Source: Escherichia coli
GTDB lineage: Bacteria > Pseudomonadota > Gammaproteobacteria > Enterobacterales > Enterobacteriaceae
Strand: one strand, 5' to 3'
Assembly (NCBI RefSeq): GCF_044324875.1
Contig: NZ_CP172185.1
Length of the DNA: 64,000 nt
Each line of letters opens with the position of its first letter. The stretch's first letter is position 1. A program made the translations under genes and the position numbers. Positions 26,413-27,290 of the stretch are shown piece after piece. The notes below the pieces were generated by a model. That model searched no databases, was not told the origin of the DNA, and saw only the letters and a list, made by a program, of their open reading frames with translations.

Positions 26413-26637
26413 ATGAGTGAGAATACCGGAAAATCCCATGAAAATAAAATGGTTATTATTGACTGCGGGGAATATGATGAATACCTTCGTAACGCGTGGT
26501 TCCGAGGTTTTCGGGAAGGTTATGATATGGCGATGAAATTTGGATTAGGCTGCCAGCAATGTTATGAAACAGGTGAAAAAATAGCATGCGCAAGAGCTGA
26601 AGAATGCCGTAAAAAGATTAAGGTAATAAAACACTGA
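26413..26637 (+). CDS. Small hypothetical Cys-containing protein (74 aa)
   Basis: ATG at 26413 with GAGGT 7 nt upstream; MSENTGKSHENKMVIIDCGEYDEYLRNAWFRGF…; no recognisable family. Confidence 0.35.
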   Translation: MSENTGKSHENKMVIIDCGEYDEYLRNAWFRGFREGYDMAMKFGLGCQQCYETGEKIACARAEECRKKIKVIKH

Positions 26638-26765
26638 AACGGGCTGTCTGATATTTCTGTGAGCTAAAAAGACACCGTAATACAGGTATCTCACAGTAAC
26701 TGAAAGATATGCACATGCAGCCAGGGAAGATTAAGGGTAAGGGAGGATATCCCTTACCTGATTGA

Positions 26766-27290
26766 TTATGGGATGATACCACAGGCAATTCTTGCACCAC
26801 CGCCACCTAGAGGTTCAGGATGGTCATCATGATTATCACCTCCTGCGTGGAGCATTAGCGAACGGCCATCGAGCTCCTTTAATTCAGATAGTCTTGGCGC
26901 AAGCACCGGGTAGGTTGCTTTTCCGTCATGAGTGACATAAAGCGCAGGGAGATCACCCAGGTGGCCATCAGGAGACCATGGACCGAGATGCTTCCCTGTT
27001 TTTTCCGGGTCAAAGTGACCACCTGCAGATAAAGCAGCGACAGTTTTTCCATCTTTCAGGGCAGGAGCACAACTTGCGTTTTCATGTACATGAAAACCAT
27101 GAATGCCGGCGGGTAAGGAGTGAAGATCAGGGGTGAACAGCAGCCCGTAGGGTGTCTTCTGGATGGTTATTTTACCAATATTTCGCTCTTTTCCGTCACT
27201 ATCAACAAGATTCATTGTTACATCTTTGGTGGCTGCATATCCACAGGATGATGTAGCCAGAATCACAAAGGCAATAAGTTTACGTTTCAT
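26766..27290 (-). CDS. sodC: Periplasmic Cu,Zn superoxide dismutase, SodCI-like
   Basis: 174-aa ORF with signal peptide and the conserved GFHVHE…GGHFDP…GDLP…[10 protein letters not shown] motifs. Confidence 0.85.

What the first reader, a model, noticed from the sequence alone, without database searches (positions are those of the whole stretch)
26413..27290. Horizontally acquired SodCI-like superoxide dismutase with a convergent small Cys-containing ORF, embedded in IS debris
The sodC product resembles the phage-borne SodCI type more than housekeeping E. coli SodC (recalled from memory). It lies close to sitABCD, so oxidative-stress and metal-uptake virulence functions are co-located. The adjacent 74-aa ORF has a good RBS and three cysteines in its C-terminal half (plus one near the N-terminus) but no recognisable family.
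Basis: partly seen in the sequence, partly recalled or inferred. Interest (0 to 1): 0.5.

Follow-up and report, generated by a model that had tools for sequence, protein, structure and literature searches.

The report
Extra mobile sodC plus orphan small gene
This is an intact, horizontally acquired second copper-zinc superoxide dismutase gene in a poultry/extraintestinal E. coli iron-uptake island, next to a real but uncharacterised 74-residue cysteine-containing protein gene that travels with it; the enzyme is ordinary and the small gene is a modest curiosity.

Summary
sodC (26766-27290, minus strand, 174 aa) is an intact Cu,Zn-SOD. A convergent 74-aa ORF (26413-26637, plus strand) has a good RBS and 5 cysteines, not 4. 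IS1, IS3, IS256, IS200 and IS110 pieces surround the pair, and sitABCD starts 3.4 kb away.

The "SodCI-like" label is only partly right. The gene is an accessory copy: it is in 125 of 5426 complete E. coli genomes, while the housekeeping sodC is in 5425. It is 57-60% identical to K-12 SodC. It does not group with Gifsy-2 SodCI or Fels-1 SodCIII (62-66%). It falls in a mobile-element SodC clade with the O157/Stx-prophage SodC-F1/F2 type and plasmid copies (80-84%).

The small ORF is a real protein gene. It lies within 0.8 kb of a same-clade sodC in a K. pneumoniae contig (81% aa) and in a metagenomic enterobacterial contig (54-63% aa, also beside katG). dN/dS is about 0.2. It has no other homologue, family or fold match. 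It is absent from phages, and IS elements truncate it on plasmids where sodC stays intact.

The predicted structure is a cytoplasmic helical hairpin with a conserved CxxC...C triad. Its function is inferred only, probably thiol or metal chemistry linked to oxidative-stress cargo. Interest is modest.

The parts
26247..27426 (.). 1.18-kb two-gene module (small ORF plus sodC with their control regions) shared with a K. pneumoniae contig
   Evidence: blastn gives 85.4% identity over 1182 columns to L002/L003. Homology falls to background (28-35%) on both sides.
26413..26637 (+). 74-aa small protein gene (stop codon included): cytoplasmic, hydrophilic, predicted helical hairpin with conserved C47-x-x-C50 and C65
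   Evidence: ORF. Homologues lie next to sodC in L002 (81% aa) and L011 (54-63% aa). dN/dS is 0.23; in the core pN is 0.155 against pS 0.86. AlphaFold2 pLDDT is 87-96 over residues 21-60. RefSeq WP_024210520.1.
26373..26386 (+). Perfect 14-bp palindrome AAAAGTATACTTTT containing a -10-like TATACT (26378-26383); candidate promoter or operator of the small ORF
   Evidence: Read from the sequence. It lies in the best-conserved part of the upstream region between E. coli and Klebsiella. It is not conserved in L011. The function is inferred only.
26401..26404 (+). Shine-Dalgarno GAGG, 8 nt before the ATG of the small ORF
   Evidence: Sequence. The same GAGG and the same spacing occur in Klebsiella.
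26735..26759 (.). G+C-rich hairpin between the convergent genes; likely shared (bidirectional) terminator, 7 nt after the sodC stop
   Evidence: Terminator scan on both strands. RNA fold gives -18.7 and -14.4 kcal/mol with z about -4.2. The stem is conserved in Klebsiella.
26766..27290 (-). sodC: periplasmic Cu,Zn superoxide dismutase precursor, 174 aa, with a signal peptide carrying a lipobox-like TSSC
   Evidence: NCBIfam NF007628 at 218 bits (cut-off 165) and PHROG 1975. All metal ligands, the disulfide cysteines and the catalytic Arg fall in invariant alignment columns. dN/dS is 0.09-0.12.
27291..27426 (-). Conserved sodC upstream (promoter) region
   Evidence: 86.8% identical to Klebsiella. 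The block TTCTAATTTGCATAATTAAT..TGATAGT is also recognisable upstream of the L011 and Stx-phage sodC genes.
25268..26035 (+). Complete IS1 (768 bp) on the left flank
   Evidence: InsA and InsB ORFs hit NCBIfam IS1 transposase. The terminal repeats were read. Metagenome contigs carrying the module begin at 26036.
27432..27492 (.). IS629/IS3-family fragment that abuts the right end of the module
   Evidence: About 91% identity to IS629 tnpA regions of many Stx phages.
28211..30158 (.). Truncated IS256, IS200/IS605 and IS110 transposase genes between the module and sitA
   Evidence: NCBIfam hits. RefSeq pseudogene annotations in strain EC17CM2.
30652..34122 (+). sitABCD Mn/Fe ABC transporter (context, not part of the module)
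   Evidence: RefSeq annotation of the collinear genome, ORFs, and metal-binding SBP family hits for SitA.

Best explanation
The locus is a 1.18-kb, low-GC, two-gene cargo module. IS activity has placed it in a chromosomal ExPEC/APEC island that also carries iha, sitABCD and the aerobactin genes.

Gene 1 is an intact accessory sodC of a mobile-element SodC clade. Its closest characterised relatives are the dimeric, partly lipid-anchored prophage enzymes SodC-F1/F2 of E. coli O157:H7. The precursor is exported through its N-terminal signal peptide and may be partly lipidated at the TSSC cysteine. It then dismutates superoxide in the periplasm, adding a second enzyme to the housekeeping, stationary-phase SodC. 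This step is inferred from family membership.

Gene 2 is a genuine 74-residue protein gene that has been co-inherited with this sodC lineage. It encodes a soluble cytoplasmic helical hairpin. A CxxC sits at the N-cap of helix 2, and a third conserved cysteine lies 15 residues further on.

The most likely role of gene 2 (my estimate about 0.3, inferred and not shown) is as a thiol- or metal-binding accessory or regulatory protein tied to oxidative-stress cargo, that is sodC and, in one lineage, katG. SodC does not need it for its own function.
For: sodC identity and integrity:
- NCBIfam SodC equivalog above cut-off and PHROG 1975.
- Invariant metal ligands, disulfide cysteines and catalytic Arg.
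- Strong purifying selection, omega 0.09-0.12.

Accessory status:
- Present in 125 of 5426 genomes, against 5425 of 5426 for housekeeping sodC.
- Module GC 41.7% against 50.5% for the window.
- IS elements on both sides.

Clade placement:
- 80-84% identity to Stx-prophage and plasmid SodCs.
- 91-92% to the Klebsiella copy, with 99% bootstrap for that pair.
- 62-66% to SodCI and SodCIII, and 57-60% to K-12 SodC.
- The published properties of SodC-F1/F2 come from PMC2569942.

The small ORF is a real gene:
- The ORF has the same length, the same RBS spacing and no indels in Klebsiella. The alternative 119-aa start is broken there by a 1-nt indel.
- Omega is 0.23 in the real frame, against 0.94 and 0.49 in the other two frames.
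- Against L011, synonymous sites are saturated (pS 0.86) while pN is 0.155 in the core.
- In L011 only the two coding regions are conserved, not the flanks.

Linkage:
- All three lineages that have the small ORF have a same-clade sodC within 0.8 kb. In L011 it also lies upstream of katG.

Structure:
- AlphaFold2 predicts a helical hairpin with pLDDT 87-96 over residues 21-60.
- The protein has no hydrophobic segment.
Against: - Nothing here shows that either gene is expressed.
- The small ORF has no homologue with a known function, and fold searches returned only generic helical hairpins at E>0.3.
- sodC occurs without the small ORF in prophages, in plasmids and in other IS contexts.
- IS insertions truncate the small ORF while leaving sodC intact on six plasmids. 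In about 18 chromosomes an IS removes its last 5 codons.
- The two genes are therefore separable, and the linkage may be purely historical.
- The orientation relative to sodC is not conserved. It is convergent in E. coli and Klebsiella, and divergent across an IS3 remnant in L011.
- Only C47, C50 and C65 are conserved. C18 is polymorphic and C59 is Tyr in L011.
- The deeper tree nodes have only 57-72% bootstrap support. The tree is neighbour-joining on 155 columns.
Confidence: 0.7

Rival explanations
1. The small ORF is a real gene, but it is only a hitch-hiker. It is a neighbour inherited from the unknown ancestral locus of this sodC lineage, and its function has nothing to do with superoxide, peroxide or metals.
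For: - sodC of the same clade is found without it in prophages, plasmids and other contexts.
- IS elements truncate it while sodC stays intact.
- Its divergence tracks that of sodC (81% with 91%, and 54-63% with 71%), as simple co-inheritance would predict.
- No functional motif is statistically supported.
Against: - It has stayed within 0.8 kb of sodC through a rearrangement that inverted their relative orientation and left an IS3 remnant between them.
- In that lineage its other neighbour is katG, a second oxidative-stress enzyme.
- It is under purifying selection in all three lineages.
Confidence: 0.35
2. The sodC gene is a SodCI orthologue left behind by a decayed Gifsy-2-like prophage.
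For: - A lambda TipJ-like tail gene fragment lies at 60871-63873 in the same window.
- In lambdoid phages sodC sits among the tail genes.
- The nearest characterised relatives are prophage-borne.
Against: - Identity to SodCI is only 63-66%, and the two do not form a clade.
- No tail gene lies within 30 kb of this sodC, and its immediate flanks are IS fragments.
- The module boundaries defined against Klebsiella (26247-27426) contain no phage sequence.
- The small ORF is absent from all 50,697 phage records.
Confidence: 0.05
3. The 74-codon ORF is not translated. The conserved sequence acts instead as RNA, for example a convergent antisense or 3'-UTR element that affects sodC, or it is a chance ORF.
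For: - An 89-nt stretch (26520-26608) is almost identical between E. coli and Klebsiella, with 3 differences where about 12 are expected.
- The transcript would run towards the sodC 3' end.
Against: - Substitutions are biased to synonymous sites only in the ORF's own frame (omega 0.23, against 0.94 and 0.49 in the other frames).
- Against L011 the nucleotide sequence has diverged at nearly all synonymous sites while the protein core is kept.
- A strong hairpin separates it from sodC.
- Rfam has no hit there.
- The intergenic fold is not exceptional, with z = -0.9.
Confidence: 0.05

Closest known systems
SodC-F1/SodC-F2, the lambdoid-prophage Cu,Zn-SODs of E. coli O157:H7 (D'Orazio et al. 2008, PMC2569942); represented here by the Stx2a-phage sodC
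   Same: - 80-83% amino-acid identity, and the same clade in the tree.
- About the same length (174 against 175 aa).
- A signal peptide ending in a Cys-Gly-Tyr-Ala-Ala motif with a lipobox-like cysteine (TSSC here, AASC there).
- A partly conserved upstream region.
- An accessory copy added to the housekeeping sodC.
   Different: - It is not in a prophage. The phage copies sit between tail genes I and J, whereas this one is in an IS-bounded module in an iron-uptake island.
- It has a small-ORF partner that the phage copies lack.
- The dimeric state, stability and expression pattern of this protein are untested.
Salmonella SodCI (Gifsy-2) and SodCIII (Fels-1)
   Same: They are horizontally acquired periplasmic Cu,Zn-SODs added to a housekeeping copy. 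All catalytic residues are shared.
   Different: - Identity is only 62-66%, and they fall on separate branches.
- They lie among prophage tail genes.
- They have no small-ORF neighbour.
Housekeeping E. coli SodC (b1646)
   Same: The same enzyme family and NCBIfam model.
   Different: - 57-60% identity.
- Present in 5425 of 5426 genomes at a fixed locus (ydhK-sodC-ydhF), against 125 of 5426 for this gene.
- PMC2569942 reports it as monomeric and expressed only in aerobic stationary-phase cultures.
Small CxxC metal- or redox-active proteins, such as the GMxCxxC loop-helix of HMA/CopZ copper chaperones (a resemblance recalled from my own knowledge)
   Same: The small ORF has G-L-G-C-Q-Q-C at a loop-to-helix junction. 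It is small, soluble and cytoplasmic, and it sits beside a copper enzyme gene.
   Different: - No Pfam HMA hit even at E<=10, and no PDB sequence hit.
- The predicted fold is an all-helical hairpin, not the beta-alpha-beta-beta-alpha-beta fold of HMA domains.
- The similarity is at motif level only and is a lead, not evidence.

Membership tests
Bacterial periplasmic Cu,Zn superoxide dismutase (SodC; Pfam PF00080, NCBIfam NF007628) | Full-length match to the family model above the curated cut-off | tested here: met
   218.4 bits against a cut-off of 165, covering residues 1-173. PHROG 1975 at 298.6 bits.
Bacterial periplasmic Cu,Zn superoxide dismutase (SodC; Pfam PF00080, NCBIfam NF007628) | Cu and Zn ligands (His/Asp), intrasubunit disulfide cysteines and catalytic Arg are present | tested here: met
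   H67, H69, H92, H101, H110, D113, H148, C74, C170 and R167 are invariant columns in the 14-sequence alignment. Assigning these positions to ligand roles rests on my knowledge of the family.
Bacterial periplasmic Cu,Zn superoxide dismutase (SodC; Pfam PF00080, NCBIfam NF007628) | N-terminal export signal | tested here: met
   [20 protein letters not shown] has a basic n-region, a hydrophobic core and an AxA-like end. This was read from the sequence. No signal-peptide predictor was available.
Bacterial periplasmic Cu,Zn superoxide dismutase (SodC; Pfam PF00080, NCBIfam NF007628) | Superoxide dismutase activity | not testable with these tools
   Needs an enzyme assay.
SodCI (Gifsy-2 type) | Clusters with Gifsy-2 SodCI to the exclusion of other SodCs | tested here: not met
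   63-66% identity and no shared clade in the NJ tree with 500 bootstraps.
SodCI (Gifsy-2 type) | Carried in the tail-gene region of a Gifsy-like lambdoid prophage | tested here: not met
   The flanks are IS1, IS3, IS629, IS256, IS200 and IS110 fragments. Gifsy-2 sodC lies between the lom-like and gpL tail genes.
SodCI (Gifsy-2 type) | Dimeric, protease-resistant enzyme that contributes to virulence | not testable with these tools
   Needs biochemistry and infection experiments.
Mobile-element SodC clade (O157 SodC-F1/F2, Stx-phage and plasmid copies) | High identity and a shared clade | tested here: met
   80-84% identity. Clade support is 72% (67% with P0047 included). The deeper node that also includes the L011 SodC has 57%.
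Mobile-element SodC clade (O157 SodC-F1/F2, Stx-phage and plasmid copies) | Lipobox-like cysteine in the signal peptide (AASC in SodC-F1/F2; PMC2569942) | tested here: inconclusive
   TSSC sits at the equivalent position. Lipidation was not predicted with a tool and not tested. The L011 homologue has no cysteine at that position (Y16), although it has one earlier, at residue 12.
HMA/CopZ-type copper chaperones (considered for the small ORF) | Match to the HMA domain profile and ferredoxin-like fold | tested here: not met
   No Pfam hit at E<=10. The predicted fold is a helical hairpin.
Ribosome modulation factor RMF (considered for the small ORF) | Profile similarity over the domain | tested here: not met
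   hhalign probability is 8% and only 13 columns align. No Pfam PF04957 hit.

The most novel reading that the evidence does not exclude
The 74-aa protein could be a dedicated cytoplasmic partner of mobile oxidative-stress cargo. One version: it is a new, all-helical Cu(I)- or metal-binding mini-protein. In this version its GLGCxxC...C site feeds copper into the export route that metallates periplasmic SodC. The other version: it is a thiol redox switch that adjusts expression of the adjacent sodC and katG genes. Either way it would be the founding member of an undescribed family that has so far been seen in only three enterobacterial lineages.
Probability: 0.1. Interest if true: 0.6.

Novelty: new member of a known kind. 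Interest (0 to 1): 0.3.

Why it matters
Prophage-borne SodCs are reported to contribute to Salmonella virulence (SodCI) and to hydrogen peroxide resistance in E. coli O157 (PMC2569942). This work shows that a close relative of the O157 prophage enzyme also circulates outside phages. It travels as an IS-mobilised module in about 2% of complete E. coli genomes, mostly from poultry and human extraintestinal sources, beside sitABCD and aerobactin. It also occurs on a few E. coli and E. albertii plasmids.

It is therefore a plausible but unstudied fitness factor of APEC/ExPEC. I found no paper in the held library that characterises it. One paper only lists its accession in an alignment.

The small gene matters less. 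It is a clean example of a taxonomically restricted micro-protein gene with clear purifying selection and a conserved cysteine triad. Its only clue to function is its persistent position next to sodC and, in one lineage, katG.

Tried and rejected
- **Homologue hunts for the small ORF.** The word-indexed search of 5.8 billion proteins, run with the single sequence and with a 3-sequence profile, returned only the three lineages. The exhaustive phmmer scan of 1.84 billion representatives added only P0159 and a spurious repeat protein, P0160.
- **Wider scans for the small ORF.** The scan of 100,044 species genomes found nothing. The metagenome DNA-pattern scan found eight loci, all the E. coli island allele. 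tblastn of phages found nothing, and tblastn of plasmids found only truncated copies.
- **Family libraries for the small ORF.** Pfam, NCBIfam, PADLOC and PDB sequences gave no hit. PHROGs gave only a non-significant E=0.19.
- **Fold searches.** Searches with the AlphaFold2 monomer against PDB and AFDB50 gave only generic helical hairpins, with best E-values of 2.4 and 0.37.
- **Dimer model.** A glycine/serine-linked tandem dimer, meant to test a four-helix-bundle dimer, scored worse than the monomer (pLDDT 62, pTM 0.53). It gives no support either way. Coordinates are not returned, so Cys-Cys distances could not be measured.
- **RMF resemblance.** The shared W-x-x-G-aromatic-R-E motif gave an hhalign probability of only 8% and was rejected.
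- **Glutaredoxin idea.** I thought the 83-aa ORF beside katG in L011 might be glutaredoxin-like, but it has no Pfam hit, so the idea was dropped.
- **Regulator boxes.** Consensus scans for Fur, Zur, MntR, OxyR, LexA, ArcA, SoxS, FNR and CRP sites around both genes gave only weak partial matches. The best was SoxS at 12 of 14 positions, which I do not consider evidence.
- **Transposon ends.** No convincing inverted or direct repeats mark the module ends as a transposable unit.
- **Other sodC contexts.** The surroundings of seven other SodC relatives were checked for an uncalled small-ORF homologue, and none was found.
- **Literature.** Searches for this island sodC or for the two RefSeq accessions found no characterisation.
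Full report
**1. What is there**

The minus-strand ORF at 26766-27290 encodes a 174-aa protein. It matches the NCBIfam SodC equivalog over its full length, at 218 bits against a cut-off of 165. It also matches PHROG 1975, "superoxide dismutase precursor". In a 14-sequence alignment, all residues that I assign to copper and zinc binding are invariant. These are H67, H69, H92, H101, H110, D113 and H148. The disulfide pair C74/C170 and the catalytic R167 are invariant too.

The N-terminus, [20 protein letters not shown], reads as an export signal. The plus-strand ORF at 26413-26637 encodes 74 aa. 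It has a GAGG ribosome-binding site 8 nt before the ATG and converges on sodC, with 128 nt between the stop codons.

A stable hairpin at 26735-26759 lies 7 nt after the sodC stop. It scores as a terminator on both strands, at -18.7 and -14.4 kcal/mol with z about -4.2.

**2. Setting**

- A complete IS1 (25268-26035) lies to the left, and an IS3 fragment lies further left.
- To the right are an IS629-like piece (27432-27492) and truncated IS256, IS200 and IS110 transposase genes (28211-30158). sitABCD follows from 30652, then iucABCD-iutA.
- The same arrangement is chromosomal in E. coli strain EC17CM2. There RefSeq calls the two genes sodC (WP_000823671.1) and a hypothetical protein (WP_024210520.1). 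The island there also carries iha and a second amiC.
- The 1.3-kb region is present at 99% identity or more in 125 of 5426 complete E. coli genomes. Of these, 104 hold at least 80% of it. Most are from chickens, humans and dogs.
- K-12-type sodC is in 5425 of 5426 genomes, so this is an extra copy.
- The module is 41.7% GC, against 50.5% for the window.

**3. Which kind of SodC**

| Comparison | Identity to the window protein (full length / mature) |
|---|---|
| K. pneumoniae copy | 91 / 92% |
| Plasmid-borne E. coli copy P0041 | 82 / 84% |
| Stx2a-phage sodC | 80 / 83% |
| Metagenomic copy L011 | 71 / 72% |
| Serratia | 67 / 71% |
| Pseudomonas | 65 / 69% |
| Gifsy-2 SodCI | 63 / 66% |
| Fels-1 SodCIII | 62 / 66% |
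| K-12 SodC | 57 / 60% |

- In a neighbour-joining tree (Kimura distances, mature region, 500 bootstraps), the window protein pairs with the Klebsiella copy at 99% support.
- That pair sits in a clade with the Stx-prophage and plasmid SodCs, at 72% support (67% with P0047 included). The node that adds L011 and P0050 has 57% support.
- SodCI, SodCIII and K-12 SodC all fall elsewhere.

The "SodCI" label is not.

The nearest characterised enzymes are SodC-F1/F2 of E. coli O157:H7. D'Orazio et al. report that they are dimeric, more stable than SodC, and expressed in log phase and anaerobically. They partition between the periplasm and the membrane because of an AASC lipobox (PMC2569942). The window protein has TSSC at that position. 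Members of this clade sit in very different vehicles:

- between tail genes I and J of lambdoid prophages;
- on plasmid-like contigs beside ParAB genes;
- beside fimbrial genes and IS elements;
- beside Tra genes, on what looks like a Salmonella conjugative-plasmid contig;
- beside an IS21 element.

**4. The small ORF is a real gene**

It is the same length in a K. pneumoniae contig, 81% identical in protein and 86% in DNA. It has no indels and the same RBS spacing there. It is again convergent with a 91%-identical sodC. Homology between the two species runs from 26247 to 27426 and stops abruptly at both ends, which defines the module. The longer 119-aa reading from the ATG at 26278 is broken in Klebsiella by a 1-nt indel. 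The 74-aa form is therefore the conserved one.

A third, more distant copy (P0159, 75 aa) turned up in a metagenomic contig (L011/L012). It is 54% identical over the full alignment and 63% over the matched core. It lies 750 bp from a 71%-identical sodC, now in divergent orientation with an IS3 remnant between the two. It is 465 bp upstream of, and co-directional with, a katG catalase-peroxidase. Between L011 and the window only the two coding regions are alignable.

Nei-Gojobori estimates give omega = 0.23 for E. coli against Klebsiella, compared with 0.94 and 0.49 in the other two frames. Against L011, the core has pN = 0.155 with saturated pS = 0.86. sodC gives 0.09-0.12. The amino-acid polymorphisms seen among E. 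coli alleles are S8P, E10K, D17N, C18Y and E20D. All fall before the conserved core.

**5. How restricted it is**

No further relatives were found by any of these searches:

- the 5.8-billion-protein word search, with the single sequence and with a profile;
- an exhaustive phmmer scan of 1.84 billion representatives;
- a scan of one genome for each of 100,044 species;
- a metagenome pattern scan, which gave eight loci, all the E. coli allele;
- tblastn of 50,697 phage records.

On six plasmids from E. coli and E. albertii, sodC is intact but IS insertions cut away part or all of the small ORF. In about 18 E. coli chromosomes a break at 26618 removes its last five codons. None of the other SodC-clade loci examined has a small-ORF homologue. 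The two genes are therefore separable, and SodC evidently does not depend on the small protein.

The small ORF occurs with two separate branches of the SodC clade: window plus Klebsiella, and L011. The simplest history is an old pairing that was lost whenever sodC was captured alone. This is inference.

**6. What the small protein might be**

- It is hydrophilic (GRAVY -0.75), has no hydrophobic segment and has a pI of about 7.6, so it is cytoplasmic.
- AlphaFold2, using only three sequences, gives a confident helical hairpin. The helices span residues 18-42 and 47-73, with pLDDT 87-96 over residues 21-60. The N-terminal 13 residues are disordered.
- The invariant positions include E20, Y21, D22, R26, A28 and W29, the run R31-G-F-R-E-G-Y37, and F43-G-L45. 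They also include C47-Q-Q-C50, the run E52-T-G-E-K56, R61 and C65.
- The CxxC sits at the N-cap of helix 2. C65 is four helical turns away, so the three thiols could meet only between subunits. This is inference.
- No family, PDB sequence or fold match is significant. An RMF-like motif and an HMA-like GLxCxxC motif are at best leads. A linked-dimer model was uninformative.

My best guess is a thiol- or metal-binding accessory or regulatory protein connected with oxidative-stress cargo, at roughly 0.3. A pure hitch-hiker is about equally likely.

A perfect palindrome, AAAAGTATACTTTT (26373-26386), contains a -10-like TATACT. It lies in the best-conserved part of the upstream region shared with Klebsiella. 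It is a candidate promoter or operator.

**7. Verdict**

The sodC is a new, uncharacterised member of a known kind: the mobile-element SodC clade. It is here IS-borne rather than phage-borne, in an APEC/ExPEC iron-uptake island. The small ORF is a genuine, very narrowly distributed micro-protein gene of unknown function.

Nothing points to a new mechanism, and interest is modest.

Noticed in passing
window 6001-6143 (-), 29191-29312 (-), 2995-3111 (-), 23420-23506 (+): Rfam gathering-threshold hits in the window: isrN sRNA, STnc490 (next to the IS200 tnpA fragment), the ALIL pseudoknot (an IS3 frameshift signal), and a group II intron domain just after an ltrA-like ORF at 21893-23416.
   Followed up: no
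window 6708-7967 (-): The island carries a full-length AmiC-type N-acetylmuramoyl-L-alanine amidase (792 bits to the NCBIfam AmiC model). RefSeq annotates it as amiC in the collinear genome. It sits among IS fragments, which is an unexpected place for a cell-division amidase gene.
   Followed up: no
window 50373-51968 (-), 53284-54780 (-), 60871-63873 (-): The right part of the window holds a YadA-like trimeric autotransporter, a collagen-like repeat protein and a lambda TipJ-like tail-tip protein. The tail gene looks like a prophage piece about 34 kb from sodC. In lambdoid phages sodC lies next to gene J, but nothing links the two here.
   Followed up: partly
L002 1-95 and window 30338-30432: In the K. 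pneumoniae contig, a 95-bp stretch 84% identical to the sequence just upstream of sitA lies about 140 bp from the sodC module, in a different order from E. coli. This hints that the Klebsiella and E. coli copies come from related islands.
   Followed up: no
window 26520-26608: An 89-nt stretch inside the small ORF has only 3 differences between E. coli and Klebsiella, where about 12 would be expected at the module's average divergence. It could be a recombination patch or a nucleotide-level constraint. It is not conserved at synonymous sites in L011.
   Followed up: partly
window 27291-27426 (-); L011 733-960; L008 3568-3700: A block upstream of sodC, TTCTAATTTGCATAATTAAT..TGATAGT, is recognisable in the E. 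coli island, Klebsiella, L011 and Stx-phage copies. This suggests a promoter or operator that travels with this sodC clade.
   Followed up: no
L011 2177-4348 (+): In the metagenomic lineage, the small-ORF homologue is followed by a 723-aa KatG-type catalase-peroxidase about 75% identical in DNA to enterobacterial katG. sodC, the small ORF and katG therefore form a compact oxidative-stress cluster there.
   Followed up: partly
L013 6001-7149: P0160 is a 382-aa protein made of seven near-identical repeats of roughly 50-55 residues. It gave a weak hit to the small ORF (E = 7e-5, helped by the repetition). I judged it spurious.
   Followed up: partly
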